From contig OZ243973.1 in NCBI GenBank assembly GCA_965214725.1, forward strand, positions 801,938 through 865,937: a stretch of 64,000 nt of DNA. Reading direction: 5' to 3'. Origin of the DNA: Dehalococcoidia bacterium. GTDB taxonomy: Bacteria; Chloroflexota; Dehalococcoidia; UBA6926. Every line of letters begins with the position of its first letter. The stretch's first letter is position 1. Below are positions 11,688 to 60,825 of the stretch, one piece after another. Both the position numbers and the translations under genes were made by a program. The notes below the pieces were generated by a model, which made no database searches, had not been told where the DNA came from, and saw only the letters and a program-made list of their open reading frames with translations.

Positions 11688-11820
11688 GTCATTCTGAACG
11701 GAGCGCGATAGCGCGGAGTCGAAGAATCTCGCAAGCAGGTGGGCGCGTCGAGCGTACTGCGCCATGCACGTCACGCGTAGGGCGCGCCGCGGGATTCTTC
11801 GCTCCGCTCAGAATGACAGG
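11688..11820. repeat. Inverted pair of REP2-family elements (long form at 11688-11728, short form at 11791-11820) forming a ~130-bp MITE-like palindromic unit
   Basis: gtcattctgaacggagcgcgatagcgcggagtcgaagaatc … gggattcttcgctccgctcagaatgacagg. Confidence 0.7.
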
Positions 11821-11886
11821 GGGGCATCAGAGTGACAGTGGGGGCATCAGAATGCAGTGGGGTACCAGAGCCACAGGGGGATAGAG

Positions 11887-11897
11887 CCCCCCCCCCC
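11887..11897. repeat. Poly-C homopolymer (C11) about 50 nt upstream of the tlpA-like start
   Basis: gagccccccccccccgcccg. Confidence 0.6.
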
Positions 11898-11947
11898 GCC
11901 CGTACACATTCCTGCTTGGCGCGGTATACTCTATTCACGCGCGGGGT

Positions 11948-12623
11948 TTGGTGGCTTATGGTTGATGATGATGGTCGGGATGACCGACCACAGCACACTA
12001 CGGATGACGTGAACGGTGACGAGGCGGCTGATGCCGTCACGCCTCGTGGCGTGTCTGCGGTTGATGCGGCGGAGCAGCGGCGGCCCGGATTTGTTGTCGT
12101 CGGCGTTGCCGTCCTGGTCATGGCCGCGTTCATCGGCCTCCTCGCCTACAGCCTTGTGACGCGCGAGTCGATGCCGATGGACACGACGACGCGAACCAGC
12201 ATCGCGGCGCCATCCTTCACGCTCTCTCAGATTAATGGCGCGGGTGATGTGAGCCTGTCCGATTTCGAGGGCTCGCCCATCGTCGTCAATTTCTGGGCAT
12301 CCTGGTGCGCGCCGTGCCGCGTTGAAATGCCGCACCTTGTCGACGCGCATGAACGCTACGCCGCAGAGGGAGTCCGGTTCATTGGTGTCGCCATTCAGGA
12401 CACCAATCAGGACGCGCTCGCCTTTATTGAGGAGTTTGCTGTGCCGATTGATGATGGCTACATCATGGTCAGTGATCCGGATGGGCAAGCGACCATCGAT
12501 TACGGGGTGGGCGGCCTGCCGATCACGTTCTTCATTCAGGCCAATGGCATTGTCCATACACGATGGGCGGGCGTGGTGAATGACACGGTGCTCGATGAGA
12601 GAATCATGGAGATACTCGGATAG
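11948..12623 (+). CDS. TlpA/ResA-like membrane-anchored thiol:disulfide oxidoreductase (thioredoxin fold, WCxPC)
   Basis: N-terminal TM helix, then VVNFWASWCAPCRVEMPHL and the typical TlpA C-terminus. The six-frame ORF starts at 11832; the ATG at 11948 is used. Confidence 0.75.
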
Positions 12624-12638
12624 GCGCGGGGGCTGACG

Positions 12639-13619
12639 ATGGATCGCTTTCTCGCACTCTACGCCCTCGCCCTGTATCGGCCTCGCCTGATCGCCGGGGG
12701 ATTTCTGGTGTCACTTGGCGTCGCCATGCTTGTGTTTGCGGCAGGATACGTCGCGCTCTCCGCAAGCGCAGAGACGGGCCTCGAGGAGTTGAACGTGACG
12801 CAGGATGAGAGCGGGCTGACGCGCGCTGACCTCTCACGTGGGCTGGCGGCCTCCACGACTGATACGCCGGCGCCCGCGCCTGCGGAGCCAGCCACCGCTG
12901 CTGAAAGAAACGCGCCGGCGGACAACACCACCGGGGTGAGTGTGGCACGGGCGACACGCCCCCCCTCCTGGGTAACCGATTCATGGGCGAGGGCGATACC
13001 GGAGAGCGTGGACGAGGCGGATGCCAGTCCCTATGACGAATTCGGCATCCTGCGCGACGTCAGCCACTACACATCTGATGCGGATGGCAGGGCGCTGCTG
13101 CGGCCGCTGTCGCACAATTTCACGGCGATCACCTACGCGGACCTTGTCAAGACGCACGGAAAGCAGCCGCGCCCGGACCGCATCTATATTCCCTCGATCA
13201 ATCTGTCATCCCCGGTGGTCCCGCTCGATATTATGTGGGACGGCGAGGCGAGTGAGTGGGAGACGGCGGATGATGCGGTGGGTTTCCACCGCGGGTCCGC
13301 AACGCCGGGCGAGATCGGCAACACGGTGATGTCCGGCCATGTGAACTCACCCATCGCCCGGGAGGGGTCCATCTTCGCTCGGCTGGATGAGATTGCGCCG
13401 CAACTCCGGCGCGGTGAGATCGTCGACATCTACGTGATCGTGGGTGACACCGTCTATCTGTACCGCGCAACCGATACGCGCGTCGTGCTGCCGGAGGAAC
13501 TGGACGTGTTTGATTACTCAGACGAGCCGACGTTGTCCCTGGTCACATGCGCGCCGGCAACAACGTATTCCCACCGTTTCATCGTCAACGCCACGCTGGT
13601 AGGCATATCCCGCCCATAA
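12639..13619 (+). CDS. Sortase family transpeptidase (class E-like), N-terminal membrane anchor
   Basis: Conserved His in GNTVMSGH, the TLxTC-type active site (LSLVTC) and the sortase beta-barrel region. Confidence 0.75.
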   Translation: MDRFLALYALALYRPRLIAGGFLVSLGVAMLVFAAGYVALSASAETGLEELNVTQDESGLTRADLSRGLAASTTDTPAPAPAEPATAAERNAPADNTTGVSVARATRPPSWVTDSWARAIPESVDEADASPYDEFGILRDVSHYTSDADGRALLRPLSHNFTAITYADLVKTHGKQPRPDRIYIPSINLSSPVVPLDIMWDGEASEWETADDAVGFHRGSATPGEIGNTVMSGHVNSPIAREGSIFARLDEIAPQLRRGEIVDIYVIVGDTVYLYRATDTRVVLPEELDVFDYSDEPTLSLVTCAPATTYSHRFIVNATLVGISRP

Positions 13620-20834: not shown

Positions 20835-23800
20835 TTATCCGCCGATCACTCCGTCACGCGTCGCGAACAGCAGGTAGCCCTTGCCCTTCTCAACAACCGC
20901 GCGATGCTCATCCATGGTGAACCCGTCCGTGGCCGTGCCGTTCGAGAAGTAGGTCTCGTACTGCGGCGGCGTCGCGGCTGAGTTCCACATCCGGATCATG
21001 CCCCAGCCGCTGTTCCCCAGCGCGCTCAGGTAGGCGTCCACCGGAACCATCGTCTCGTTGCCCGCGGGCGTGTAGCCGATGCTGTTCCAGCCGGCCGTCA
21101 CCGTGTACTGGGAGGGCGTGCGCTGGGGGCTGAACCGCTCTGTGAGCACCTTCACCGGATCGAACGTCGTGCTGCGGACAAAGTAGCCGCGCCCGTCAAC
21201 GATCTGTGTCAGTGTGCCCATCCATTCGCCGCTGTCGGCGTCCTTCCGTGCGAACTCCCAGATCTTCGTCTCGTTGTTCAGGCTCCAGACGTCCGTCACC
21301 ATCGATCCCTCAAGCACACCATCAATGCTCTTGTCCTGCGGGGTGCCCGGGATGGAGATGAGCGACCAGCCAGGGTTCACGGCAACCGATGCAGGCGCAG
21401 GCGCCGTGATCTTGAACACGTACCCGAACTTGCCCTCGTTGCCAGCCTCGTCCACGAAGTCGACGTTCAGGCGGTAGTTGCCGATGGCCAGGTCTGACAG
21501 GGCGACCACGTACCGAACGTGATTCGAGCTCTGCGCAGACCCGTCCTCAACTTCCCACGTCTCCGTCACTTCAACCATCGCGGCAGCCTTGAGCATGTCG
21601 TCGCTGTCAAGCGAGCCGGCTGACAGGCCCTCAAGGCCCAAGCCTGTGACGGTAACCATCTTCTTGGTGTCAGTTGACTTGTATTCGTCCCCGGTGCCTG
21701 TACCGTACTCGTTAGCCTCAGCAGCGAACTCGAAGTTGAGGAACACAACGTCATTGACCTCAATCGGCTGAGCAACCATGGGATCCGCGTCCTTGTCATA
21801 CACCCGTGCGGGGGGCATGCCGCCGTTCGCCTTGGTATCAAGCTCCCATGTGGACTTCATGCTCATACCATCATTGTCATTCGTATCCGTACCAGTGACG
21901 TGAACGGTGTACTTACCGCTAGCACTAGTTCCGCCAAGGTTCTCGGCCTTCCTGTTCGTGCTCACTGTCCACGTGTTGTCATCCGATGCGGCCCGCACAG
22001 ACAGTGGCTCGTCATAGGAGCCAAGCATCAAGCGTGCCTTCGGCGTCTGCTCGAGTTCCTCAGAGGCGACGATGGTGATTTCCAACTCATCATTGCTGAG
22101 CGGGTTGGCCACAGTCACCGTGAATACAGGAGCGAGCTCATCCACCGGCTTCGCCGTGTGATCGTTCCTGCTCTCGTTGCCAGCCAAGTCGCGCAGATCG
22201 CCATTGTCTATGTCGATTGTAGGTCGCGCATCGGTCGCCAGGTCGTTCTCAAGGGTCAAGAACAGAAGGTGCCTAGCGTCCTCACCATCGGCCATGTCGT
22301 CAGCGAGCCCGAGATCATCTCGAACGGCCACGCCGCCGACGGAACCAATCTTGCTACCGTTCGTGTTATCCAACCAAGTCACGCTGGTGACGCTGTTGCC
22401 GCTAACGCTGACATTCTGTGCATTCACGTCAGCCCCAGCGATGGCATCATCAAACACCAGCACGATGCCCTTCGTATTCTCGGTGACCAGTTCATAGGGA
22501 TCGCCATCGGAGCCGGCCTTGACGCTGACGCCCGTGAGAGCCTTCATCAGTTCCGGATCGATGTCATCCACCACGAACGTGTATGACTTCTTCGCCACGT
22601 TCCGCGCAAGGTCATACGCGGTGATATCGACTTTGACAGTCACGGTCTCCGGCTCGTCGTCGCCAGTGCCCTCTGCTGTCTGTACAGCACTGGTGACATC
22701 GAATTCAATCTCGTAACGCTCGCCATCAGTGATTTCGTCGTCGACATCTAGCTCAGCGGTGTCCCCGCCGTCCAAGTCGAGGACTGGCTCATCTTCGCCC
22801 TGACCGTACATTGCCATCCGCATGACGTGGTAGTGGCCATCACGGATCTCCTCTTCATGGGCATCCTCGGGGATGCCAGAGTCAGCATCCGTCACGTTGA
22901 AGAAGAAGGAGAAGTCATCATCCGCAACGTATGAACCGCTGGCGAGAGAGTTTCCGCCAATCGCCGGCGCAACAATGTCAACCTCTGTGCGTGCAGTGCG
23001 AGTGCCGGTGGGCTCCGCATCGCCATACCGAATCGTCACCGTGTCGCCATGCTCCACGCCGATAACGGCAGCCAGCAAAGCGTCCACCCTAGCACCCATC
23101 AGCCCAAGATTTCCTGTGTGACCGTTGATCGCATCAACAAGCGATACCGCCTGCATGCAATTCTTGTCTCTGTCGGCCATGTCGTCATCACCACAGAAGG
23201 AGTTGAAGACACCATCAATCTCGTCATCGCCCTGATCGGCCGTTCCAGTTGCCTGAACGGTTGCGAGCAAGGACGCAATGGTTCCGCTCGCCGCTTCTGT
23301 CGTGTAGTTCACCATGAACATGTCAGCCGTATCGGCCGTAGCCTCGTTGCCATCTTCAGCGACACTGCTCCCGTTAAGCGGGACCGCAACAGTAACAGTC
23401 CCATCGCTATTGACGGTCACCACATGATCGTTGGCCATGGTGGTCCGGACAGAACCATCGGTATCCACACCGGGCTTAAACATCACTTCCAAACTTCCGG
23501 ATACCAACGTATTCGCCGCTGAAACACCTGTAAGGTTGAACACCGCCGACGGCGCGGCAGCGATTGTGTTGGGATCATCCGGAGTCTCAGCGGTGTTAAC
23601 TGCTGGGGACACGACAGTAATCGTCTGCGCCTGAGCCTGTGGGGTCGGGACAAGGCCCGCGTAATCCGCAATCGCGTCCTTAAATTCCTTGCGGATGACT
23701 CCAAAGCGGCCAACAAACACACCAGAGTCTCGGGAGTCCGCAGCCGCAGGATCGAAACTTGTGATGTCGGTCCCGCCAAAGTTAGCAGCGCCGACACCGT

Positions 23801-24688
23801 TATCCAGTGCAGCATATGTGGCCAGGTTCTTCTCACTCACTGAGATCCTGATGGAACTCCGATCGGACGTGCTCGAGACCTCGACACGGCTCTTGTCCTG
23901 AAGGGTCTCAACTCTGTAATCGCTCGGATAAGTCAATGCATTTTCCCCAGCGGAGTCAAACCCGATTCGCAATGCTGGAACATACTCAACGTTATTCTCA
24001 GCAGCCGGCCTGTCCACAGTGGGTATTGAATCCCCTTCTTGAAGGTTAGGGATTAAGCCTCTATCTAGGTAGAGTCCGTCATTCGCTGTATTGATCCCAG
24101 CGAAGGCACCGCTCTGAAGGGCCCGCGTACCAACAAACTTGGCGGGAGCGGCCATTACCGGAGGGGTAGCACTGGGGTTAGCACGAACAGCCGGAAGGTA
24201 CCATCCAAGCTCAAGCTCGATATCTTCCCCATTCACAACACCGTCACGTGTATCATCACCGACGACCAAACTACCGAGAACCATTATCTCATCTGCTATG
24301 TCGTCAGCTGTGTCACGATCCGTGTCTAGACCCCGCGAAGCGAAGTCACCTACCAAATCACCGTTCGGCAGGTTAACGGCCACAGCAAAGCCAGCCGCTC
24401 CAGAGGAGGACGCCAAGCTGGGGTCGATCCTAAAAAGGGATCCACCAGGATTCGCATCTGGAAGGTTGGTGACGCGTCTTCGAGAGAGGTAACGGAGCCT
24501 GTCGTATCCGACACGTACTCGGTGCCCATGAGCTTTTCAAACGTTGAGCCAGTCTTCCCAGAGGGATTGGCGAGCTCATCGGGGGTAACGATTTTGACGT
24601 TACCGGCGGCTGCGCCGGCCCCGATGGCCGGGATCATGGCGAACGCGAGGATCGCGACCGTCAAGATAATGAGTGCTTTGCGCTTCAC
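20835..24688 (-). CDS. Very large (~1280 aa) acidic secreted/cell-surface protein with a Sec signal peptide; apparent frameshift near 24470-24500
   Basis: Signal peptide VKRKALIILTVAILAFAMIPAIGAGAAAG (GTG at 24688 after a GGAAGGGGG RBS) is in the frame of ORF 24350..24841. That frame switches to the 1193-aa ORF 20835..24416 around 24470-24500. The body is D/T/G/V-rich with repeated beta-rich segments (Ig-like/adhesin- or S-layer-like composition). No LPXTG sorting signal. Confidence 0.6.
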
Positions 24689-25223: not shown

Positions 25224-25240
25224 GGGGGAGGGGGCCCCAC

Positions 25241-25413
25241 TGTCATGCCGGGCCTCTCACTGTCATACCGGGCCTCCCACTGTCATTCCGAGCCTCCCAC
25301 TGTCATTCCGGGCCCCCCACTGTCATTCCGAGCGCCCTTCATGTCATTCTGAGCGCGCCATGTCATTCTGAGCGCCCTTCATGTCATTCTGAGCGCAGCG
25401 AAGAATCCCGCAG
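25241..25413. repeat. Tandem array of ~8 units of ~20 bp derived from the REP2 half-site (cactgtcattccgRgcYYcc … atgtcattctgagcgc), ending in a full REP2
   Basis: Contiguous units with no spacers (minisatellite-like; not CRISPR). Confidence 0.8.
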
Positions 25414-34708: not shown

Positions 34709-34870
34709 TTTACTTCCCCATACAGACAAGTCGAATGGAATTCCGATTCTTCCCGTACCTCTTAATTCTAGCCCCCTTACAAATCTCAGACAGAACGGTG
34801 ACAATGGGTGCAGAGTTGGCCACCAGTTGGTAGCCAACTGGAAGCAATCAACGTAGGGGAGGGACGTTAC

Positions 34871-36586
34871 ATGGTCATGGAAGCTCGTAACAGGCGCCTG
34901 CCTGACTGGCTGATTCGTGTAAAGAGTGGCCAGTTAGCCCTTCCAAGATTTCAGCGATTCGAGAGCTGGGGCCACGGAGATATTGAAACTCTTCTAGACA
35001 CCGTACTCCGCAAGAGACCAATTGGGGCTGCGTTGGTACTTGCCATCGGCGACAAGGAGCCATTCGTAAGCCGCGCAATGGCAGGCGTACCGCAACCAAC
35101 TGAACGGACTACTGAGCACCTCTTGGACGGGCAACAGAGACTAACTGCGTTGTGGAAGGCACTAAACGACGGATACACGGACCGGACTTATTTTGCGGTG
35201 CTTCAGCCTGATGTTGACGATCCATCATTCGTCAAGAGCTACAGTCGATGGCACAGAAATGGACAACGGTACCCTCTTTGGGTTGACCGGCCAGCTGAAC
35301 AGTGGAATCGCGGTCTGGTGCCTTTGCGCCTTCTCAACCCGGACGCAGATTCCAGTGAAATAGGTGCTTGGTGTGATTCAGCTACAGATTCTCTAGAAGA
35401 CAGTCGTGACTTAGAGCGCAAACTGCAAGTACATCGAACCGCCTTGCAAGAGGCAAACCTCCCCTTCCTAGAATTACCGGTTGACACGCCTCCTGATGAA
35501 GCAATCGACGTCTTTATCAAGATGAATACTACTTCGGTCCGCCTCACTGCATTCGATATTGTAGTCGCTCAGATGGAAGCAGCCACAGGTCAATCGCTGC
35601 ACGAGCTTGAAGGATCGTTGCGTTCGGCAGTACGCGAGGCTGAATGGTATGTCGATATTTCGGACTTGATCCTCCGAGTAGCTGCCCTCAGGGAAAACCG
35701 ACCACCAACAGAGTCCTCCTTCATGCGCCTGGACATGCAACGGCTCTCGGACGAGTGGGAGGCCATTCAACAAGGGGTAGATGGTGCAATCAGATTTCTA
35801 AGGGAAGAGCACATCTATGATCGCGAGCGGTTGCCCACGGTCGCAGTGGTACCAGTTCTTGCGGCAATCTGGAGTCAAATGCCTCAGTCTCTTGATGCAC
35901 ATGGTGAAGCGCGTACGCTGCTCCGAACATATTTGTGGCGTGCATTCTTCACTGACAGGTATGATCGAGCGGCTGGCACGGCCGCCTTACAAGACTATCG
36001 TGGACTAAAGTCCCGGCTGGTTGACGCGGATGGTGATGCTCTAGCCCCAATATTCGAGGAGCATCGGTTCCCCGTAGCCGAAATCGAGCAAATAGAAAGG
36101 GCGCCTTGGCCTAGGCTCCGGAACACTTTGGCGCGCGCAATACTCGCAGTGTCGCTGCGGGCAGGTGGCAGGGATTTTGCCGACGATAGTCCAGTAAGTT
36201 CAGAATCTCTTTCCAGAAGGGAGTATCATCATCTTTTTCCCGAGGCTCTCTTGAGGAATGATGGCTTGCTTGAGGATTCAGAAATTCACTTGGCATTAAA
36301 CTGCGCTTTGGTCACTTGGAATACCAACCGTAATATCGCCGCCAAGGAACCTGTTGCCTACCTGCGGGAGCGTGTTGAACGGGCGCCACTAGGCGAGGAT
36401 CAGATTCGTAGCAGACTTGATTCCCACATCATCCCGTTCAGTTTCCTAAATGTTGGTGGTTATGCCAATATGGTCGATAAAGACGCTCGTGCAACGAAAA
36501 TCGGGACAGACTACAGCGATTTTGTACGAGCCCGCGCCGCGGCAATTCACGAGGTAGTAACTAGGCTGTGCAATGGCGAGGAGTAA
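34871..36586 (+). CDS. Second GmrSD-like DUF262/DUF1524 fusion protein (putative type IV restriction endonuclease)
   Basis: DGQQRLTALWKAL (DUF262). C-terminal …EYHHLFPEALL…HLALNCALVTWNTNRNIAAKEP (DUF1524 H-N-H-like). Low-GC gene. ATG at 34871 follows an AGGGGAGGGA RBS. Confidence 0.7.
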   Translation: MVMEARNRRLPDWLIRVKSGQLALPRFQRFESWGHGDIETLLDTVLRKRPIGAALVLAIGDKEPFVSRAMAGVPQPTERTTEHLLDGQQRLTALWKALNDGYTDRTYFAVLQPDVDDPSFVKSYSRWHRNGQRYPLWVDRPAEQWNRGLVPLRLLNPDADSSEIGAWCDSATDSLEDSRDLERKLQVHRTALQEANLPFLELPVDTPPDEAIDVFIKMNTTSVRLTAFDIVVAQMEAATGQSLHELEGSLRSAVREAEWYVDISDLILRVAALRENRPPTESSFMRLDMQRLSDEWEAIQQGVDGAIRFLREEHIYDRERLPTVAVVPVLAAIWSQMPQSLDAHGEARTLLRTYLWRAFFTDRYDRAAGTAALQDYRGLKSRLVDADGDALAPIFEEHRFPVAEIEQIERAPWPRLRNTLARAILAVSLRAGGRDFADDSPVSSESLSRREYHHLFPEALLRNDGLLEDSEIHLALNCALVTWNTNRNIAAKEPVAYLRERVERAPLGEDQIRSRLDSHIIPFSFLNVGGYANMVDKDARATKIGTDYSDFVRARAAAIHEVVTRLCNGEE

Positions 36587-37219: not shown

Positions 37220-37496
37220 GCGGGCATGAGGGAAGATGAGCGAGCGGGCACACCTACCGATTGTCACGGACAGGGTCAAAGCCTCTGAGCGGTTCAGCAC
37301 GCCTAGTCGCAATGCGCAGATAGTGGATTTTGGCCGTCCCCGCAATACCGGAGAGAGACGAGAATGAGGGCAGGCGGCGGCTCCTGTCCTTGACCGCGTC
37401 GGGCGGGACGCCTATCGTACTCGCAGATTGGGTGGCGTGGAGAATCAGAATCATAATGCCGCGCGGCGCGCCCTATCACCGGGGGAGAGGATCACC

Positions 37497-39893
37497 ATGA
37501 CCAATGGCACGCATGACACCGCGTTAGGACACCTGAGAGTCGTCGAATACGGCGAGATGCCGGCTGCGTATGCGGCTGGCTACCTGGCCGGACTCGGCGC
37601 GGACGTAATCAAAGTGGAGCCGCCGGGGGGTGATCCGAACCGTGCGCATGGGCCCTTTGCGGGCGGCATCGTGCACGCCGAGCGCGGCATCCCGTTCCTT
37701 AATGCCAACCTGAACCGGCGCAGCATCGTCCTGGATATCGATGATGCGGACGGGATGGCAACGCTGCAGCAGCTGGTGGAGCGGGCCGATATCTTTGTGG
37801 AATGCACGCCGCCCGGCCACCTCTCCGCACACGGCCTCACGGAGGAACGGCTCCAGGAAGTGAATCCCGGCCTCGTCACCGTTGCCATCACCCCGTTTGG
37901 ACAATCAGGGCCATACAGCCACTTCGCGGCGAATGAGGCCGTCGTCTCTGCCATGTCCGGCGTGATGATGAGCCAGGGGGATGATACGCGGGCGCCCGTT
38001 GTTCTGCCGTGCCAGATCGGCTCGCAGCTGGCGGCCGCCCACGGGGCCTATCTCGCCATCGCTGCCGTGCGGCACCGCCGCATAACGGGGCGGGGACAGC
38101 GCATCGATCTGTCATTGCAGGAGGCGCTCACATATACGGGCGTCAGCGCCATTGCGCGCTACAGCCAACGGAGTGAGATTGTCACGCGGCAGGGAAACAG
38201 CGGCGGTCCGGCGAACATCTATCAGACCAAGGACGGCAAGTACGTCCAGATCGCCATCTTTATGACGGGCCATTGGCGCATTCTGGCCCGCTCCTGGATG
38301 GAGGATGCCGTCCTCTCCGGCGATGACTGGGATTCCTCCCAATTCCGCACCGATAACGAGGACCTCGCGCAGGTCTTGATTCAATCATTCGTTGAACAGT
38401 TCGACCGCGATGAGTTCGTGGAGGAGGCGCAGAAGCGCGGCATCGCCGTCTGCCCCGTCAATACCTTTGAAGACTTTGTGACGGATGAGCATATGCGGCA
38501 GCGCGGCTGGTTCCAACGGGTGACGCACCCGGTGGTGGGTGAGTATGAAACACCGGGCCAGCCGTTCATCATGTCAGAGACACCATGGATACAGCCTCGC
38601 CCCGCCCCACTCCTTGACCAGCATCGCGATGAGGTTCTGAGCGAGATAGCGGCCATTCCGCCGCGTCGTGACGACGCCCCCGCCCCAACCAATGGACGCG
38701 CGCCTGATGCGCCGCTCCTTGAGGGCATCCGCGTCGCGGACATCACACGGGCATTTGCGGGGCCCATCGGCACCATGTTCCTCGGGTTCTATGGCGCTGA
38801 AGTCATCAAGGTTGAGTCAGAGAGCCTTGAGGCGAATCGTGAGCCGTCACGCCCACTCTTCCCGGACATGAACCGCGCAAAGCTGAGCTGCACCATTGAC
38901 CTGCGATCAGACGACGGCAAAGACCTGTTCCGTGATCTTGCCCGCACGAGTGACGTCGTTGTCGATAATTTCAGCGCAACCGTCATGAAACGGCTCGGTC
39001 TCGGCTATGAGGATCTGTCAGCCATCAATCCGGGCATCATCCAGATTGGGATGCCTGGCATGGGGACCACCGGCCCGCTCAATAACTGGGTCACATACGG
39101 CAACAACCTGCAAGCCATCACGGGGCTGTCCCTCCTGTGGGGGCACCCGGACTCCCCAATGCAGAGCCACGCAAAGGGAGTGATTCCGGATTACGTGGGG
39201 GCCGCATTCGTCGCGCTCTCCACACTCGCCGCGCTGGAATACCGGGACAGGACGGGACGCGGACAGCATATCGAGATCGCGCAGGTGGACGGACAAGGGC
39301 AGATGATGGGGACGGCCATCCTCGATTACACCATCAACGGAACCGTCTGGGGCAGCGTGGGGTACGATGAGCCGATAGCCGCTCACTATGCGCCATTCGG
39401 CGCGTATGCCTGCCGCTACCCGGACACCTGGATTGTCATCGCGTGTGAGACGGACGATCAGTGGCGCGCCCTCTCAACGGCCATGGGCGCCCCTCATTGG
39501 GCGGATGACCCTCGCTTTGCCGATGTGGCGGGCCGGCGCGCCAATCGGGACGAGATCGATCATGAGATTGCCGAGTGGACGCAGGCCTTCACGACACATC
39601 AGCTGCTTCACATGCTGCAGCGTGCCGGCGTGCCGGCGGGCGTCGCCATGAACGGAGAAGACCTCTACAACGATCCGCACCTGCGTGAACGTGGGCATGT
39701 GGTGCGAGCCACCCACTCGCCATGGGGACTGCTGTCTCACCAGGGGCTGCCGGGCATCCCGTCACTCTCCACGGCAAGCGCTGCGCGCCCCGCGCCATGG
39801 ATCGGCGCCGATAATGAGTATGTCTTCAAATCAGTGCTGGGCATGGATGATGCGCGCATCGCGGACGGCGTCGCGCGTGGCGTGCTAAGGTGA
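37497..39893 (+). CDS. Tandem-domain (fused) family III CoA-transferase, ~800 aa, with two complete CaiB/BaiF modules
   Basis: Module 1: LRVVEYGEMPAAYAAGYLAGLGADVIKVEPPGGDPNR. Module 2: LEGIRVADITRAFAGPIGTMFLGFYGAEVIKVESE. Each has its own conserved Asp-containing core. The ATG at 37497 follows a GGGGGAGAGG RBS. Confidence 0.75.
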   Translation: MTNGTHDTALGHLRVVEYGEMPAAYAAGYLAGLGADVIKVEPPGGDPNRAHGPFAGGIVHAERGIPFLNANLNRRSIVLDIDDADGMATLQQLVERADIFVECTPPGHLSAHGLTEERLQEVNPGLVTVAITPFGQSGPYSHFAANEAVVSAMSGVMMSQGDDTRAPVVLPCQIGSQLAAAHGAYLAIAAVRHRRITGRGQRIDLSLQEALTYTGVSAIARYSQRSEIVTRQGNSGGPANIYQTKDGKYVQIAIFMTGHWRILARSWMEDAVLSGDDWDSSQFRTDNEDLAQVLIQSFVEQFDRDEFVEEAQKRGIAVCPVNTFEDFVTDEHMRQRGWFQRVTHPVVGEYETPGQPFIMSETPWIQPRPAPLLDQHRDEVLSEIAAIPPRRDDAPAPTNGRAPDAPLLEGIRVADITRAFAGPIGTMFLGFYGAEVIKVESESLEANREPSRPLFPDMNRAKLSCTIDLRSDDGKDLFRDLARTSDVVVDNFSATVMKRLGLGYEDLSAINPGIIQIGMPGMGTTGPLNNWVTYGNNLQAITGLSLLWGHPDSPMQSHAKGVIPDYVGAAFVALSTLAALEYRDRTGRGQHIEIAQVDGQGQMMGTAILDYTINGTVWGSVGYDEPIAAHYAPFGAYACRYPDTWIVIACETDDQWRALSTAMGAPHWADDPRFADVAGRRANRDEIDHEIAEWTQAFTTHQLLHMLQRAGVPAGVAMNGEDLYNDPHLRERGHVVRATHSPWGLLSHQGLPGIPSLSTASAARPAPWIGADNEYVFKSVLGMDDARIADGVARGVLR

Positions 39894-41379: not shown

Positions 41380-41955
41380 ATGGCCACAACAACCGCAAGC
41401 GCATCGACCAAGCCTCAGGTCGTCACAGCAGATGACCTGTTGCAGCGTGGCTCCACTGGCCCGCGCGGGGAGCTTATTCGAGGAGTGTTTTGCGAGATGC
41501 CGCCACCGGGACATGAGCATGGAGAAATCATCATGCGCCTTGGCGCTATGCTTCTTGGCGCCGTGACTCAATCCGGACTGGGCAGAGTTTCGGGCGCCGA
41601 CTCCGGCGTCTGGGTTGAGCGGAATCCCGACACGGTGCGGGCGCCGGACGTCTCCTTCTTTTCGGTTGAACGGATGCCGCTTGATGCCGCCATCCCCGGC
41701 TATGCAGAGATTGTGCCGGACCTGGCCGTTGAAGTTGTCTCACCGAATGATCGAGTAACCGAGGTTAATGACAAGGCCCGCATGTGGATCGATGCCGGCG
41801 TCAAACTCGTCTGGGTGGTCTGGCCGCAGTGGCACACCGTTGAGGTTCATCAACCCGACGCAGCAACCATTGAGCTCAGCGGAGATGCCACGCTTGACGG
41901 TCAGGATGTGCTGCCCGGCTTCTCCACGCCCATCAGCGCCATCTTCGCAGCCTGA
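41380..41955 (+). CDS. Uma2 family (DUF820) putative restriction-endonuclease-like protein, tandem copy 1
   Basis: …PDLAVEVVSPNDRVTEVNDKARMWIDAGVKLVWVV… is a typical Uma2/PD-(D/E)xK signature. Confidence 0.75.
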   Translation: MATTTASASTKPQVVTADDLLQRGSTGPRGELIRGVFCEMPPPGHEHGEIIMRLGAMLLGAVTQSGLGRVSGADSGVWVERNPDTVRAPDVSFFSVERMPLDAAIPGYAEIVPDLAVEVVSPNDRVTEVNDKARMWIDAGVKLVWVVWPQWHTVEVHQPDAATIELSGDATLDGQDVLPGFSTPISAIFAA

Positions 41956-41967
41956 GGATAGCCCGTC

Positions 41968-42543
41968 ATGGCCACAACAACCGCAAGCGCATCGACCAAG
42001 CCTCAGGTCGTCACAGCAGATGACCTGCTGCAGCGTGGCTCTACTGGCCCGCGCGGGGAACTTATTCGAGGAGTGTTTTGCGAAATGCCACCAGCGGGAC
42101 TTGAACATGGGCGTGTCGTCGCAAATCTCACAGTGTTGGTCTTGACGGCCGTGAGACAGAATGCACTGGGTACTGTGGCGTCAAATGACCCCGGCGTCTG
42201 GGTGGAGAAAGACCCCGATACCGTGCGGGCGCCGGACGTCGCCTTCTTTTCCACAGAACGTATGGACCCGACCGCAGCTGTCCATGGCTATGCAGAGATT
42301 GTGCCGGACCTGGCCGTTGAAGTTGTCTCACCGAATGATCGCGTAACCGAGGTTAATGACAAGGCCCGTATGTGGATCGATGCCGGCGTCAAACTCGTCT
42401 GGGTGGTGTGGCCGCAGTGGCACACCGTTGAGGTTCATCAACCCGACGCAGCAATCATTGAGCTCAGCGGAGATGCCACGCTTGACGGTCAGGATGTGCT
42501 GCCCGGCTTCTCCACCCCCATCAGCGCCATCTTCGCAGCCTGA
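41968..42543 (+). CDS. Uma2 family (DUF820) protein, tandem copy 2 (identical N- and C-termini to copy 1, divergent central ~70 aa)
   Basis: 588-bp tandem duplication unit including ~10 nt of the 5' leader (gatagcccgtcATG). Terminal thirds are identical; the middle is diverged. Confidence 0.75.
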   Translation: MATTTASASTKPQVVTADDLLQRGSTGPRGELIRGVFCEMPPAGLEHGRVVANLTVLVLTAVRQNALGTVASNDPGVWVEKDPDTVRAPDVAFFSTERMDPTAAVHGYAEIVPDLAVEVVSPNDRVTEVNDKARMWIDAGVKLVWVVWPQWHTVEVHQPDAAIIELSGDATLDGQDVLPGFSTPISAIFAA

Positions 42544-42578: not shown

Positions 42579-43517
42579 CTACCCCTTGAAGACGTGCGTG
42601 TTATGCCACTCAAGGGCGTCCCGATCCGGCCTGTCAATCTCTGATTCAGGGATGAGAATCTCCTGACCGTCGTAGGCATAATATTCTCGCCCATTCTGGA
42701 ATTCCCATCTGATGCTCCCGCTGACTTTGAAGTGATAGTCCGGCGTAACGGTGACGTATCCCTCATCAAAGAGCTTGTGGATGTCCCGACGGAGCAACAA
42801 ACCATTGCTCGGCTCGTGTTCTCCATCCTTGCGGTACGGGCGGATGTGTGCCGCCTCTAAGGCGGGCAGCGTACGTTCCCGAGTAACAGCACACCGACGG
42901 TCATAAAGGTCCGCAACAATCGTTCGGAAACCACCCTGCCCCAGCCTTGGCTTAACGACCTGCGGGGCTCCGTACCTCTCTCGTCCTTCTGCAACAAGAG
43001 TTGCTGCCTCTCGAACTGCCTCGCGAGCTACGCGCTCCTGGAAAGCCCCCCTGAGTGCGCGTTCTATCTCTTGATCCTTTACACTGTCGTACCCCTTGCC
43101 GGTGACAATGTTCGGATGCCAGTCAGGAGGCGGGTCCATCCAGTCAGCCTCATCGAAAAAGAATGGCTGCAAGAGGACTCGGCATACGATCTCCGTGCGT
43201 GGGCCCTTCCACCCGTGTTTCGTGAGTCCCTCAAGAAATTCCTCTGGAGTTTCTGCCCCGTTATTTTCCTCGAAGGATTCCCAAGCAAAAAAGGGCGGGA
43301 GGATGGTTGAATACCGAAAATATGCTCCACCGACAATCTTGTTCCTAGGCGCATGCAACTTGAACAGGAACAGAGCACCCTGTTCAAGAGAACCAAGATT
43401 GTCCTTGCCAGACGGTGACCAAAAATTGACTTCACTTGGCTGGGGTTGGCGCTCTCTCAGCGTCCGAAACCAGTCATAGTCCGTGACCGCGACGACGAGG
43501 TTGATGGGCATGGTCAC
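42579..43517 (-). CDS. HNH endonuclease (HNH_2-type, AHIxPY…NGLLLRxDIHxLFD) with an N-terminal uncharacterised (possibly PUA/EVE-like) domain
   Basis: …CAVTRERTLPALEAAHIRPYRKDGEHEPSNGLLLRRDIHKLFDEGYVTV… is the HNH_2 signature. The N-terminal ~150 aa are unassigned. Confidence 0.6.
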   Translation of the reverse strand: MTMPINLVVAVTDYDWFRTLRERQPQPSEVNFWSPSGKDNLGSLEQGALFLFKLHAPRNKIVGGAYFRYSTILPPFFAWESFEENNGAETPEEFLEGLTKHGWKGPRTEIVCRVLLQPFFFDEADWMDPPPDWHPNIVTGKGYDSVKDQEIERALRGAFQERVAREAVREAATLVAEGRERYGAPQVVKPRLGQGGFRTIVADLYDRRCAVTRERTLPALEAAHIRPYRKDGEHEPSNGLLLRRDIHKLFDEGYVTVTPDYHFKVSGSIRWEFQNGREYYAYDGQEILIPESEIDRPDRDALEWHNTHVFKG

Positions 43518-43611: not shown

Positions 43612-44304
43612 GTGGACACACCAACTCTGAGACGCCCCGCCACGGTGATCTGCGCCGCCTTGGTGGTGGCTGCCCTCCTCCTCATCGGTTGTGGCAGCGA
43701 GGATTCACCGGCCGTGACGCCATCCCCCACCACGCCGCCAGCATCAACCGCCACCCCCGTTCCAACTCCAACGTCACCGCCGACACCTGTCGCCCCAGCA
43801 GAGACATCCACCCCCGAGTCGGACGGGCCGCAGGCGCCCGATTTCTCGCTGCCGACAGGCGATGGCGCAACGCACACGCTGGACGGGCTGTTGGCGGGGC
43901 GCGAGGCGCTCGTGTTGGTCTTCTATCGCAGCTACCTTTGAGGCATCTGCCAACAGCAGCTCGTCGAGCTGCAGACCCTGTACCATGAGTTTGAGGGCCG
44001 AAACGTCGGACTCGCCGCCATCAGCACAGACACCCGGACGAATGCGGAGCAGATGCGGGATTTCGCCGCAGCCGAGTTCCCGATCCTCGCGGATACGAGC
44101 GAGGATGTCGCCAAAGAGTACGGTGTGTTCAACCTGTTGGAAGACGGCGTGGCCGCGCCCGCAACGTTCATCATTCAGCCGGACGGCGCCATTGTCTGGT
44201 GGTACATCGGTGTCAACATAGGCGACCGCGTCCCTACCCGGGCGATTTTGGAGGTGCTCGACGCGTTTCTGGAGGGTGGGCCGGTCAGGACAGCGGCCGT
44301 GTAG
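43612..44304 (+). CDS. Candidate selenoprotein: lipoprotein-anchored peroxiredoxin/redoxin-family thiol peroxidase with in-frame UGA (43939-43941) at the first position of the CxxC active site (U-G-I-C)
   Basis: N-terminal lipoprotein signal (LLLIGCGS), a Pro/Thr linker, then …ALVLVFYRSYL-TGA-GICQQQLVELQ…. This aligns to the redoxin motif FYRGxW-C-PxC-xxQL with the TGA at the catalytic Cys. The reading frame stays open after the TGA to 44304 and encodes the rest of a redoxin domain (…FPILADTSEDVAKEYGV…). An 8-bp-stem hairpin with a GUC apical loop starts 12 nt downstream of the UGA (43954-43974), consistent with a bacterial SECIS. Confidence 0.55.
43954..43974 (+). promoter_or_regulatory. bSECIS-like hairpin (cagcagcuc-GUC-gagcugcag) 12 nt downstream of the in-frame UGA
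   Basis: Seen directly in the sequence; the apical loop contains GU, as in characterised bacterial SECIS elements. Confidence 0.45.
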
Positions 44305-44490
44305 GCGGGCGCACACTCATCACACTAGCAAGCAGCAAAAGCCTAATCCTGCCCTTGCTCACGCACCACGGCCTTGCGGGCGCACACTTCACACGCGCAA
44401 GCAGCAAAAGCCTAATCCTGCCCTTGCTCACGCACCGCGGCCTTGCGGGCGCACACTCATCACACTAGCAAACAGCAAAAGCTTAAAATC
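44305..44490. repeat. ~70-bp tandem direct repeat, 2.6 copies, between convergent genes
   Basis: Unit ggcgcacac…gcaagcagcaaaagcctaatcctgcccttgctcacgcaccRcggccttgcg is repeated at 44307, 44378 and 44447 (partial). Confidence 0.8.
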
Positions 44491-53076: not shown

Positions 53077-53379
53077 CTATGAACCCTTCTTGACTGCGCC
53101 GGCGAGTTCCGTTCCGGGGGAGAACCCGACGCGCTGATGCGCCGGAACCTTTGTGGGCTTGCCGGCATTCTCGCCGCGCAGTGGGCGCACCGTGCGCTCC
53201 TTGATCTTGCGAACCTCAAAGCTGCCAAACCCCGTAATGACGACACGATTGCCGCGCGTCAGAGATTCCTGGATCGCGCCGGTCACCGCATTCAGCGCCG
53301 CCTCTCCACTTGAGCGGGTCCCGCCCATGCGCTGTGCCACCAGCCCGGCCAGGTCACCCTTGTGCAAGGTCTCTGCCAT
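53077..53379 (-). CDS. HU family nucleoid-associated DNA-binding protein
   Basis: …GFGSFEVRKIKERTVRPLRGENAGKPTKVPA… conserved HU arm. Confidence 0.8.
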   Translation of the reverse strand: MAETLHKGDLAGLVAQRMGGTRSSGEAALNAVTGAIQESLTRGNRVVITGFGSFEVRKIKERTVRPLRGENAGKPTKVPAHQRVGFSPGTELAGAVKKGS

Positions 53380-60710: not shown

Positions 60711-60747
60711 AGGGAGCGAGCGGGGGACGCGAGTATGAGGGGACTCT

Positions 60748-60825
60748 AGTATGTCATTCTCAGCCAAATGGTATGTCATTCTCAGCGAAATAGTATGTCA
60801 TTCTGAGCGCAGCGAAGAATCCCGC
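60748..60825. repeat. Three tandem ~23-bp units derived from the REP2 half-site (gtatgtcattctcagcNaaat) ending in a full REP2
   Basis: gtatgtcattctcagccaaatg gtatgtcattctcagcgaaata gtatgtcattctgagcgcagcgaagaatcc. Confidence 0.8.

What the first reader, a model, noticed from the sequence alone, without database searches (positions are those of the whole stretch)
43612..44304. Candidate selenocysteine-containing lipoprotein peroxiredoxin (UxxC) with a bSECIS-like hairpin
A thioredoxin-fold gene is split by a single in-frame TGA (43939-43941). Aligned against the redoxin/AhpC-TSA active-site pattern (FYRGxW-C-PxC-xxQL), the TGA falls exactly on the peroxidatic/first Cys: …VFYRSYL-U-GIC-QQQL…. 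The frame continues without further stops for another 120 codons of convincing redoxin sequence. A UGA replacing the catalytic Cys of a CxxC oxidoreductase is the classic selenoprotein signature. An 8-bp-stem hairpin with a GUC apical loop begins 12 nt 3' of the UGA, matching the geometry of bacterial SECIS elements. The protein also carries a lipoprotein signal (LIGC lipobox) and a Pro/Thr-rich tether, i.e. an extracytoplasmic membrane-tethered seleno-peroxidase.
Basis: partly seen in the sequence, partly recalled or inferred. Interest (0 to 1): 0.8.

Follow-up and report, generated by a model that had tools for sequence, protein, structure and literature searches.

The report
Selenocysteine redox lipoprotein gene, wrongly split
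This is a real gene for a membrane-tethered, secreted redox protein whose internal "stop" codon almost certainly encodes selenocysteine; it belongs to a selenoprotein class already known from marine metagenomes, but gene finders routinely cut it into two fragments.

Summary
GTG 43612 to TAG 44304 (+) is one frame with a single in-frame TGA (43939-41) inside an AhpC/TSA domain, in the context FYRSYL-U-GIC-QQQL.

- **Conserved TGA:** the aligned codon is TGA in all 80 related genomes fetched (39-77% identity, mostly Dehalococcoidia/SAR202).
- **Translation continues:** the frame stays open downstream, and dN/dS there is about 0.1.
- **Cys homologues:** full-length relatives carry Cys at that column.
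- **Normal stop elsewhere:** TGA ends 8 of 18 verified genes in the window.
- **Hairpin:** the 6-7 bp stem at 43956-43972, with a G-first loop, starts 14 nt after UGA. It is conserved with repeated compensatory changes, at least 12 G-C/A-U switches and 7 G-C/C-G flips.
- **Sec machinery:** curated-grade selB lies 5-7 kb from the gene in more distant relatives.

Sec sits at the first Cys of a thioredoxin-type CxxC. That position is the Thr of the peroxiredoxin PxxxTxxC motif, not the peroxidatic Cys. The peroxiredoxin Pro and Arg are replaced, by Arg and a ResA-like Pro. It therefore fits the known, uncharacterised "Prx-like thiol:disulfide oxidoreductase (PF00578, UxxC)" selenoprotein class.

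Sec machinery in this genome itself could not be checked. Verdict: new member of a known kind.

The parts
43612..44304 (+). Complete coding sequence of the selenoprotein: 230 codons plus the stop, GTG start, TAG stop, one internal UGA. The start codon is the first in-frame start after a stop; no clear Shine-Dalgarno sequence precedes it, so the exact start is uncertain.
   Evidence: The frame downstream of the TGA is open for 107-127 codons in 78 of 81 family members.
43612..43692 (+). Lipoprotein signal peptide: a positively charged n-region (RR), a hydrophobic core, and the lipobox L-I-G-C. Cys27 (43690-43692) is the predicted lipidated first residue of the mature protein.
   Evidence: Read directly from the sequence. 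A lipobox-like motif after a hydrophobic run was found in 57 of 81 family members with a crude pattern, and in the public N-terminal fragments. No dedicated signal-peptide predictor was available.
43693..43833 (+). Pro/Thr/Ser/Ala-rich linker (residues 28-74), presumably a flexible tether between the lipid anchor and the catalytic domain.
   Evidence: relatives carry similar low-complexity linkers of variable length.
43834..44301 (+). Prx-like (AhpC/TSA, Redoxin) thioredoxin-fold domain, residues 75-230.
   Evidence: Pfam PF00578 at 1.3e-27 and PF08534 at 6.8e-20. The best solved relatives are A. pernix Bcp 2cx3 and M. tuberculosis AhpE.
43927..43929 (+). Arg106, in the place of the conserved Pro of the peroxiredoxin PxxxTxxC motif (FYR versus FFP/FYP).
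   Evidence: Alignments. FYRG/FYRS is conserved across the family.
43939..43941 (+). UGA codon 110, predicted selenocysteine. It is the first position of the U-G-I-C redox motif.
   Evidence: TGA at this column in 80 of 80 relatives. Cys at this column in full-length homologues P0213, P0215, P0219 and P0236. It aligns with the first Cys of WCAPC in the window's own TlpA-like paralogue.
43948..43950 (+). TGC Cys113, the resolving partner in UxxC. It aligns with the peroxidatic Cys of AhpE and Bcp.
   Evidence: Invariant TG(C/T) in 81 of 81 sequences (columns 16-18); alignments.
43956..43972 (+). SECIS-like hairpin within the coding sequence. The 5' arm is 43956-43962, the loop GUC 43963-43965, and the 3' arm 43966-43972. 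It starts 14 nt after UGA, and the loop G lies 24 nt from the U of UGA.
   Evidence: Across the family, 93.2% of cells are paired, against 14-41% in shifted registers. The covariation score is 0.236 against 0.100 in shuffles (0 of 500 reach it). RNAalifold finds the same helix. There are at least 12 independent G-C/A-U switches and at least 7 G-C/C-G flips. G is the first loop base in 70 of 71 distinct sequences.
44158..44160 (+). Pro183 in the invariant VAAPATF motif. It replaces the catalytic Arg of peroxiredoxins and aligns with the Pro of the LPITF (ResA/TlpA-type cis-Pro) motif.
   Evidence: Invariant in the family (P115 of the 162-aa query). AhpE has GIANRGTF where this protein has GVAAPATF. 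Aligned to GLPITFF of window 11832-12623.
44302..44304 (+). The true stop codon (TAG).
   Evidence: In 23 of 81 family members the true stop of the same gene is itself TGA.

Best explanation
The region is one intact gene for a selenocysteine-containing, Prx-like thiol:disulfide oxidoreductase that is exported and lipid-anchored.

**Decoding.** The ribosome reaches UGA 43939-41. The hairpin at 43956-43972, 14 nt downstream with a G in its apical loop, acts as a bacterial SECIS. It recruits SelB-GTP-Sec-tRNA(Sec), so Sec is inserted at residue 110 and translation runs on for 120 codons to UAG. The conserved UGA, the conserved and covarying hairpin, selection on the downstream frame, and selB in relatives are shown. 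SelB binding itself is inferred.

**Export.** The precursor is exported, lipidated at Cys27 and cleaved. This leaves the catalytic domain on a Pro/Thr-rich tether of about 47 residues on the outer face of the cytoplasmic membrane. This step is inferred from the sequence motif and its conservation.

**Chemistry.** Sec110 occupies the position of the exposed nucleophilic first Cys of a thioredoxin-type CxxC. It attacks an oxidised substrate, either a protein or small-molecule disulfide or possibly a peroxide. It then forms a selenenylsulfide with Cys113, which an extracytoplasmic reductant pathway reduces again. This step is inferred.

The canonical peroxiredoxin catalytic Pro, Thr and Arg are replaced, by Arg106, Sec110 and Pro183. 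I therefore rate disulfide reductase or isomerase chemistry of the TlpA/ResA type (about 0.55) above dedicated peroxidase chemistry (about 0.35).
For: - **Single domain across the stop:** Pfam AhpC-TSA matches at E 1.3e-27.
- **Split at the same place in public catalogues:** the closest public proteins are all split at this column. N-terminal fragments end at ...VFYRSY[LGFY], and C-terminal fragments of about 110 aa follow.
- **Conserved TGA:** the aligned codon is TGA in 80 of 80 genome loci from distinct species at 39-77% identity. The downstream frame is open in all of them.
- **Selection downstream:** dN/dS after the TGA is 0.09-0.18 against the 12 closest relatives, with synonymous sites near saturation.
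- **TGA is otherwise a stop:** it ends 8 of 18 Pfam-verified genes in the window, and it ends this same gene in 23 of 81 relatives.
- **Cys homologues:** full-length relatives carry Cys at the Sec column, for example P0213 FYRGFF-C-GIC-RGQLVEL at 45% identity.
- **Hairpin:** covariation statistics. The paired changes include synonymous ones, Gln CAG/CAA with Leu CUG/UUG.
- **SelB in relatives:** TIGR00475 scores 330 bits against a cut-off of 242. The gene lies 5-7 kb from the Prx-like gene in L014 and L039, and tblastn also finds it in L015 and L051.
- **SelB and the Prx-like gene share contigs:** SelB clusters and Prx-like fragments have matching contig lengths, inferred from lengths alone.
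- **Literature:** Dehalococcoidia MAGs with 46-49 selenoproteins (PMC13326102). [quoted passage not shown]
- **Active-site alignment:** against AhpE and Bcp, and against the window's own WCAPC TlpA-like paralogue.
Against: - No tRNA-Sec, selA, selB or selD was found in the 64-kb window. The rest of this genome is not available.
- selB could not be tied to the closest clade (L001-L011), only to relatives at 48-59% identity.
- The hairpin's folding energy in the single sequence is unremarkable, and Rfam has no matching model.
- Part of the stem is fixed by the conserved amino acids Q-L-x-E-L, so only the synonymous and flanking positions carry independent information.
- One Cys-form homologue (L081) keeps the hairpin intact.
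- Nothing here demonstrates selenium incorporation, export, lipidation or catalytic activity.
Confidence: 0.85

Rival explanations
1. It is a true seleno-peroxidase. Sec110 is oxidised by H2O2 or organic hydroperoxides to a selenenic acid, as in glutathione peroxidase, where Sec sits at the same first position of a UxxT motif. Cys113 resolves it, which gives an extracytoplasmic peroxide scavenger.
For: Overall sequence similarity is highest to real peroxiredoxins: Bcp 2cx3 at 4.6e-12 and AhpE at about 1e-9, against ResA at 8.6e-6. Pfam AhpC-TSA is the best family. From established knowledge, GPx-type enzymes place Sec or Cys at the first position of the CxxC-equivalent turn, and selenolates react fast with peroxides.
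Against: The residues that define peroxiredoxin catalysis are missing. Pro is replaced by Arg106, Thr by Sec110, and Arg by Pro183. No peroxiredoxin or GPx NCBIfam model reaches its cut-off. The conserved P-A-T-F motif aligns with the cis-Pro motif of CxxC oxidoreductases.
Confidence: 0.35
2. The TGA is a genuine stop, from a pseudogene, a sequencing error or a naturally split gene. Only a 109-residue lipopeptide is made, or the C-terminal half is translated separately.
For: Gene callers split the gene in every public catalogue. No Sec machinery is seen in the window.
Against: - TGA sits at the same column in 80 of 80 independent assemblies from different species.
- dN/dS downstream is about 0.1.
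- The split falls in the middle of a thioredoxin fold, at its active site.
- In the window, the first in-frame start after the TGA is ATG 44053. That would leave only 83 residues and no active site.
- The hairpin covaries.
Confidence: 0.03
3. UGA is read through without selenium. It would be read as Trp or Gly by a reassigned genetic code, or as Cys or Trp by near-cognate suppression, so the protein carries an ordinary residue at position 110.
For: Some public proteins of this family show W at the column (P0224, P0239).
Against: - The DNA behind P0224 is TGA, and the locus does not translate to the listed protein under table 11. I infer the W comes from a gene-calling table that reads UGA as Trp.
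- TGA ends 8 of 18 verified window genes, and it ends this same gene in 23 of 81 relatives.
- A conserved SelB-type hairpin and selB itself are present in the lineage.
- Homologues carry Cys, not Trp or Gly, at this column.
Confidence: 0.04

Closest known systems
'Prx-like thiol:disulfide oxidoreductase' selenoprotein family (PF00578, UxxC/UxxU; 'Prx-like 1' of the GOS study). Described by Kryukov & Gladyshev and by Zhang et al.; listed in PMC1088965, PMC2398784, PMC9312934 and PMC13188914.
   Same: [quoted passage not shown] It has Cys homologues and a SECIS hairpin just after the UGA. It is abundant in marine microbes, and its function has only been predicted.
   Different: I could not compare sequences with the archetype (WP_010940744.1), so identity at subfamily level is untested. 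This Dehalococcoidia clade has its own motif, FYR[GS]xF-U-GIC-xxQLxEL, and an invariant VAAPATF. It also carries a lipoprotein anchor and a Pro/Thr linker. No NCBIfam model reaches its cut-off.
1-Cys/atypical peroxiredoxins AhpE (Rv2238c; PDB 1xxu, 4x0x) and Bcp/PrxQ (PDB 2cx3)
   Same: These are the best sequence matches among solved structures. They share the fold, and the local motif is near-identical: AhpE LVFFPLAFTGICQGEL against LVFYRSYLUGICQQQL here.
   Different: Peroxiredoxin Pro is replaced by Arg, Thr by Sec, and the catalytic Arg by Pro. The peroxidatic Cys position is kept as Cys113, but it now follows a Sec. These peroxiredoxins are cytoplasmic and unanchored.
TlpA/ResA/CcmG-type extracytoplasmic thiol:disulfide oxidoreductases, including the window's own paralogue at 11832-12623
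   Same: A membrane-tethered thioredoxin-fold domain on the outer face of the membrane. The redox pair spacing is C/U-x-x-C, and a Pro-x-T-F motif occupies the cis-Pro position. These proteins also match Pfam AhpC-TSA and Redoxin.
   Different: This protein has no Trp before the first redox residue (F/L-U-G-I-C against W-C-x-x-C). The ResA model scores 42.6 bits against a cut-off of 170. Overall similarity is lower than to peroxiredoxins. It has Sec where those proteins have Cys.
Other curated thioredoxin-fold seleno(lipo)proteins in NCBIfam: Rcas_1661 family thioredoxin-like (seleno)lipoprotein NF041057, SelL-related redox protein NF040769, WAxxUGC ResA-like NF041054, PrxU NF040737
   Same: The concept is the same: a Sec/Cys thioredoxin-fold redox protein. 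For Rcas_1661 it is also a lipoprotein from Chloroflexota.
   Different: All score far below their cut-offs: 24 against 190, 48 against 120, 33 against 300 and 32 against 270 bits. This is a distinct family.
Bacterial SECIS element of E. coli fdhF (from established knowledge)
   Same: A short hairpin inside the coding sequence just 3' of the UGA, with a small apical loop bearing G. The loop lies about 21-24 nt from the UGA.
   Different: The sequence is unrelated, there is no conserved bulged U, and the apical loop is only 3-5 nt. Binding to SelB is untested.

Membership tests
Bacterial selenoprotein gene (UGA = Sec) | An in-frame UGA conserved at the same column in orthologues | tested here: met
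   TGA in 80 of 80 loci at 39-77% identity. Public fragments all break at that column.
Bacterial selenoprotein gene (UGA = Sec) | Homologues with Cys at the Sec column | tested here: met
   P0213, P0215, P0219, P0236, P0232 and others have C-x-x-C at the aligned positions. Codons TGT and TGC were confirmed in L081-L084.
Bacterial selenoprotein gene (UGA = Sec) | A SECIS-type stem-loop immediately 3' of the UGA with G in a small apical loop | tested here: met
   Hairpin at 43956-43972. Across the family 93% of cells are paired, with covariation in 4 of 7 pairs and at least 12 and 7 independent compensatory events. G is the first loop base in 70 of 71 distinct sequences. No curated covariance model exists to score it.
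Bacterial selenoprotein gene (UGA = Sec) | The coding sequence downstream of the UGA is under purifying selection | tested here: met
   dN/dS is 0.09-0.18 against the 12 closest relatives. The median is 0.09 among 55 pairs within the clade.
Bacterial selenoprotein gene (UGA = Sec) | selA, selB, selD and tRNA-Sec present in the same genome | not testable with these tools
   Only 64 kb is available. None was found in it. In relatives, selB (TIGR00475, 330 bits against a cut-off of 242) lies 5-7 kb from the gene.
Bacterial selenoprotein gene (UGA = Sec) | Selenium actually incorporated into the protein | not testable with these tools
   Needs 75Se labelling or mass spectrometry.
Canonical peroxiredoxin (Prx) | A PxxxTxxC active-site motif with Cys as the peroxidatic residue, plus a conserved catalytic Arg | tested here: not met
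   The motif here is RxxxUxxC, and the Arg is replaced by Pro183 in the invariant VAAPATF. No peroxiredoxin NCBIfam model reaches its cut-off.
Pfam AhpC-TSA / Redoxin superfamily | A score above the Pfam gathering threshold | tested here: met
   PF00578 scores 96.6 bits against 26. PF08534 scores 71.8 bits against 26.6.
'Prx-like thiol:disulfide oxidoreductase' selenoprotein class (PF00578, UxxC) | [quoted passage not shown] | tested here: met
   against the definitions in PMC1088965, PMC2398784 and PMC9312934. Direct sequence comparison with the archetype was not done.
TlpA/ResA/CcmG thiol:disulfide oxidoreductases | A W-C-x-x-C motif, a cis-Pro loop, an extracytoplasmic anchor, and a curated model score | tested here: inconclusive
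   U-x-x-C and P-x-T-F align with WCAPC and LPITF of the window's paralogue, and a lipobox is present. There is no Trp, however, and NF002854 ResA scores 42.6 bits against a cut-off of 170.
Bacterial lipoprotein | An N-terminal signal peptide ending in a lipobox [LVI][ASTVI][GAS]C | tested here: met
   L-I-G-C27 after RR and a hydrophobic core. The motif is conserved in 57 of 81 relatives by a crude pattern. No dedicated predictor was run, and lipidation is untested.

The most novel reading that the evidence does not exclude
This clade, restricted mainly to Dehalococcoidia/SAR202, may be a functionally distinct family of extracytoplasmic, lipid-anchored seleno-oxidoreductases. It would use selenenylsulfide chemistry outside the cell to keep metal-handling or respiratory proteins reduced, a TlpA/Sco-like role.

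The hint comes from about 15 more distant members, where a CopC-CopD-cytochrome c fusion gene follows immediately on the same strand. The family is also missed systematically by gene callers and by curated models, so the selenoproteome of these abundant ocean bacteria is under-counted.
Probability: 0.25. Interest if true: 0.55.

Novelty: new member of a known kind. Interest (0 to 1): 0.35.

Why it matters
This is a clean, comparatively validated case of UGA recoding in an uncultured, environmentally abundant lineage.

- **Annotation is wrong throughout.** Public protein catalogues hold this family only as two fragments, or with a spurious Trp at the Sec position. No NCBIfam model captures it. 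Correct annotation would add a selenoprotein to well over a hundred species-level genomes, since 127 relatives matched in the genome collection and all 80 examined carry TGA.
- **A usable SECIS set.** The family gives a well-covarying, minimal bacterial SECIS, a stem of 6-7 bp with a G-first loop 14 nt after UGA. That could help train SECIS models for Chloroflexota.
- **An uncommon location for Sec.** A lipid-anchored, extracytoplasmic Sec enzyme is an uncommon arrangement, although the separate Rcas_1661 (seleno)lipoprotein family is already curated.
- **A testable lead on function.** The copper-gene neighbourhood in some relatives offers a starting hypothesis for a selenoprotein class that has been 'predicted, function unknown' since 2004-2005.

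Tried and rejected
- **Rfam.** A gathering-threshold scan of the whole window and a permissive scan of 43900-44030 found nothing relevant. Rfam seems to hold no usable bacterial SECIS model.
- **Single-sequence folding.** The folding energy is not significant, so I relied on comparative evidence.
- **Structure prediction.** The aligner also refuses translations that contain a stop. No 3-D model or fold search was made.
- **Sec machinery in the window.** About 48 ORFs were scanned with Pfam, ARAGORN was run, and tblastn was run with E. coli SelA, SelB and SelD recalled from memory. None was found. The only selA hit, in L068, was weak (E 5e-5) and was not pursued.
- **Linking selB to the closest clade.** I tried matching contig lengths in a SelB homologue search. 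Only the best 120 of at least 8000 hits are listed, all from the L014 clade. The link was made for more distant relatives only.
- **tRNA-Sec in the 80 loci.** None was found.
- **A second selenoprotein gene in the window.** I treated TGA as sense and screened the results. All other candidates looked like off-frame noise. The best one, at 53135, was inspected and rejected.
- **BSepDB supplements.** None are held as text.
- **Promoter and terminator scan around the gene.** Nothing informative.
Full report
**1. The observation**

Reading the window directly confirms a frame from GTG 43612 to TAG 44302-44304. It is interrupted by one stop, TGA 43939-43941 (codon 110), in the context ...LVLVFYRSYL-*-GICQQQLVELQ.... 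A further 120 sense codons follow.

With Cys typed at the stop, the 230-residue product matches Pfam AhpC-TSA across the stop (residues 73-196, profile 3-123 of 124, E 1.3e-27) and Redoxin (6.8e-20). The two halves are therefore one thioredoxin-fold domain cut at its active site.

The N-terminus reads ...LRRPATVICAALVVAALLLIGC27GSE.... That is a positively charged stretch, a hydrophobic core and an L-I-G-C lipobox. A Pro/Thr-rich run of 47 residues follows.

The hairpin has 7 contiguous Watson-Crick pairs, GCAGCUC (43956-62), loop GUC, GAGCUGC (43966-72), and starts 14 nt after the UGA.

On its own the fold is energetically unremarkable (z = -0.13). The combination is rare, though. Only 4 of 2410 TGA triplets in the window are followed at 10-18 nt by such a hairpin, and three of them belong to one unrelated palindrome.

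**2. Comparative evidence that the UGA is decoded**

A protein search returned only fragments as close relatives. About 40 clusters are C-terminal halves of roughly 110 aa (45-76% identity). A second set are N-terminal halves of 90-130 aa that all end at ...VFYRSY[L/G/F/Y], each with a lipobox and a Pro/Thr linker.

A scan of one genome per species found 127 relatives, and the 80 best were fetched. Nearly all are Dehalococcoidia, SAR202 or other Chloroflexota MAGs, plus a few Latescibacterota, Gemmatimonadaceae and Anaerolineae.

A local tblastn shows that the codon aligned to the window's TGA is TGA in 80 of 80 loci, at 39-77% amino-acid identity. The family motif is FYR[G/S]xF-U-G-I-C-x-x-Q-L-x-E-L. 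The frame after the TGA stays open for 107-127 codons in 78 of 81 members; the other three are longer fusions.

Against the 12 closest relatives, synonymous sites downstream of the TGA are near saturation (pS about 0.6), yet dN/dS is 0.09-0.18. The downstream half is therefore translated and under selection.

TGA is not reassigned. It ends 8 of 18 Pfam-verified genes in the window. It is also the true terminator of this same gene in 23 of 81 relatives, including most of the closest clade.

An exhaustive HMMER search with the C-terminal 120 residues found full-length homologues at 39-46% identity with Cys at the Sec column. Examples are P0213 (FYRGFF-C-GIC-RGQLVEL), P0215, P0219 and P0236. TGT or TGC was confirmed in their DNA.

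Two catalogue proteins show Trp at that column. The DNA of one (L085) is TGA and does not translate to the listed protein under table 11. I infer the Trp comes from gene calling with a table that reads UGA as Trp.

**3. The hairpin is a conserved RNA structure**

An ungapped alignment of 81 sequences from TGA-6 to TGA+50 was scored for the 7-pair helix.

- 93.2% of cells are paired, against 14-41% when the 3' arm is slid by 1-3 nt.
- The covariation score is 0.236, against 0.100 ± 0.011 in shuffles (0 of 500 reach it).
- RNAalifold independently predicts the same helix.

| Pair (alignment columns) | Counts | Comment |
|---|---|---|
| Outermost (24-40) | G-C 31, C-G 30 | |
| Fourth (27-37) | G-C 48, A-U 22 | Coupled synonymous changes: Gln CAG/CAA with Leu CUG/UUG |
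| Fifth (28-36) | C-G, switched to A-U once (L045) | Accompanies an amino-acid change, QIVDL |

On a neighbour-joining tree built from flanking protein sequence, parsimony needs at least 12 independent G-C/A-U switches and at least 7 G-C/C-G flips. The signal is therefore not one inherited event.

The first loop base is G in 70 of 71 distinct sequences. This matches the small G-containing apical loop described for bacterial SECIS elements (PMC1088965). From my own knowledge of E. coli fdhF, the loop lies at a comparable distance from the UGA, about 21-24 nt.

Among four Cys-form homologues the register is intact in one (L081), intact only through three G-U pairs in one, and degraded in two (4 of 7 and 5 of 7 pairs). 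This suggests relaxed constraint, but the sample is too small to conclude.

**4. Sec-decoding machinery**

The window holds one tRNA, tRNA-Lys. Pfam scans of about 48 ORFs found no selA, selB or selD, and tblastn found none either. The window is a housekeeping stretch: ThrRS, IF-3, CTP synthase, Rho, riboflavin genes, citrate synthase and SAM synthetase.

In relatives, tblastn with a recalled E. coli SelB was used only as a lead. It hit four loci. The ORFs in L014 (2922-4784) and L039 (5754-7616) score 330-332 bits on the NCBIfam equivalog TIGR00475 selB, against a cut-off of 242. They lie 5-7 kb from the Prx-like gene.

A homologue search shows thousands of SelB proteins with SelB winged-helix domains. 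Several share contig lengths with Prx-like fragments or with locus L026, so I infer they sit on the same contigs. The BSepDB paper lists Dehalococcoidia MAGs with 46-49 selenoproteins (PMC13326102).

The lineage clearly uses Sec. The closest clade (L001-L011) and the window's own genome remain unverified.

**5. What kind of protein it is**

Against solved structures, the best sequence matches are real peroxiredoxins: A. pernix Bcp (2cx3, 4.6e-12) and M. tuberculosis AhpE (about 1e-9). ResA follows at 8.6e-6.

The alignments show a remodelled active site.

| Position | AhpE | This protein |
|---|---|---|
| Active-site motif | LVFFPLAFTGIC45QGEL | LVFYRSYLUGICQQQL |
| Catalytic Arg region | GIANRGTF | GVAAPATF |

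- Sec110 takes the place of the Thr of PxxxTxxC.
- Cys113 takes the place of the peroxidatic Cys.
- The peroxiredoxin Pro becomes Arg106.
- The catalytic Arg becomes Pro183, inside an invariant VAAPATF.

The window itself encodes a classical TlpA/ResA-like anchored redoxin at 11832-12623 (FWASWCAPC...GLPITFFIQ), next to a sortase. BLASTP aligns U110 and C113 with its two Cys residues, and Pro183 with the Pro of its LPITF motif.

The protein is thus a peroxiredoxin-scaffold protein carrying a thioredoxin-type UxxC and a cis-Pro-like motif. [quoted passage not shown]

- In the GOS study it is "Prx-like 1, pfam00578, UxxC", with 225 sequences (PMC2398784).

No NCBIfam model reaches its cut-off. 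The best is SelL-related at 48 bits against 120. The Chloroflexota "Rcas_1661 thioredoxin-like (seleno)lipoprotein" model scores 24 bits against 190. This clade is a distinct family that is not yet curated.

**6. Mechanism**

*Shown:*
- a conserved UGA
- a conserved, covarying hairpin 14 nt downstream
- a selected downstream frame
- Cys homologues
- selB in the lineage

*Inferred:*
- SelB-GTP-Sec-tRNA(Sec) binds the hairpin and inserts Sec110.
- The precursor is exported, lipidated at Cys27 and cleaved, which leaves the domain on a flexible tether outside the cytoplasmic membrane.
- Sec110 is the exposed nucleophile and forms a selenenylsulfide with Cys113 during turnover.
- An extracytoplasmic reducing pathway regenerates it.

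The peroxiredoxin catalytic residues are gone, and the motifs resemble TlpA/ResA. I therefore favour thiol:disulfide oxidoreductase chemistry (about 0.55) over dedicated peroxidase chemistry (about 0.35). The latter is not excluded, because GPx-type enzymes also place Sec at this first position.

There is a lead on substrates. In about 15 more distant family members the gene is followed about 390 nt later, on the same strand, by a CopC-CopD-cytochrome c fusion (Pfam and NCBIfam). Other subsets have conserved secreted or His-rich neighbours with no known domains. The window's own neighbours are unrelated: HNH_2, two Uma2, DUF1801, MpaB-like, nitroreductase, tRNA-Lys and signal peptidase.

**7. 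Rivals**

- **Pseudogene, sequencing error or split gene.** Effectively excluded by the 80 of 80 conservation, the dN/dS value and the position of the break.
- **Code reassignment or selenium-free read-through.** Made unlikely by the normal use of TGA as a stop, including in the same gene, and by the SelB-type hairpin, selB in the lineage and Cys homologues.

**8. Verdict**

This is a genuine, intact selenoprotein gene of a class known since 2004-2005, in a lineage already known to be rich in selenoproteins.

The new elements are modest:
- a specific lipoprotein clade that public gene calls split and that curated models miss
- a very well supported minimal SECIS
- a copper-gene association in some members

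Novelty: new member of a known kind. Interest: 0.35.

Noticed in passing
window 44305-44486: A 69-bp tandem repeat, 2.6 copies at 90% identity, starts right after the selenoprotein's stop codon. It fills the gap to the convergent DUF1801 gene. The unit occurs nowhere else in the window.
   Followed up: partly
window, e.g. 25234-25396, 11806-11880, 60747-60809, 19438, 36683, 59568, 59688: The dispersed 13-mer TGTCATTCYGAGC occurs 17 times, on both strands, against 0.17 expected by chance. Some copies form 20-22-bp tandem arrays in intergenic DNA. This looks like a genome-specific repeat family.
   Followed up: partly
window 11832-12623 (+) and 12639-13619 (+): A classical membrane-anchored TlpA/ResA-like redoxin (FWASWCAPC...GLPITFF), a Cys paralogue of the Sec protein, is followed immediately by a sortase gene.
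   Followed up: partly
L043 10480-12750; L014 10444-12693; L039 10359-12767 (about 15 loci): In more distant family members, a fusion protein of about 750-800 aa (CopC, CopD and cytochrome c) lies directly downstream of the Sec gene on the same strand. This hints at a link to copper or cytochromes.
   Followed up: partly
L022 10976-12508; L025 9237-9818; L069 8837-9868; L036 7842-8267: Conserved neighbours of the Sec gene appear in 16-20 loci each: a 510-aa membrane protein, and secreted or His-rich proteins of 141-343 aa. None has a Pfam hit or a significant NCBIfam hit.
   Followed up: partly
L081 452-898: A Cys-form homologue (TGT; FYRGFFCGICRGQLVEL) keeps the SECIS-register hairpin fully paired (7 of 7). 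This may be a recent Sec-to-Cys conversion with a fossil SECIS. Other Cys forms have a degraded hairpin.
   Followed up: partly
P0224 / L085 114-635; P0239: Public protein catalogues list family members with Trp at the Sec position. The DNA of P0224 is TGA, so I infer these come from gene calling with a table that reads UGA as Trp.
   Followed up: yes
P0210, P0220, P0232; L064, L069: Domain fusions occur in the wider family: a TlpA-like WCPPC domain followed by this domain, tandem duplications of the domain, and Sec forms with long C-terminal extensions (226-421 codons after the UGA).
   Followed up: no
window 41380-41955, 41968-42543 (+), 42579-43517 (-), 5344-7158 (-), 34808-36586 (+): Nuclease-type genes cluster in the window. 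Two tandem Uma2-family genes and an HNH_2 gene lie directly upstream of the target, and two GmrSD-type restriction endonuclease genes lie elsewhere.
   Followed up: no
window 20835-24416 (-): A 1193-aa ORF has no Pfam match at E <= 1e-4.
   Followed up: no
window 7167-8519 (-), 8652-9869 (-), 37428-39893 (+): Three CoA-transferase family III genes are present. One, of 821 aa, has two matched stretches. The 821-aa type is also a conserved upstream neighbour in the closest relatives.
   Followed up: no
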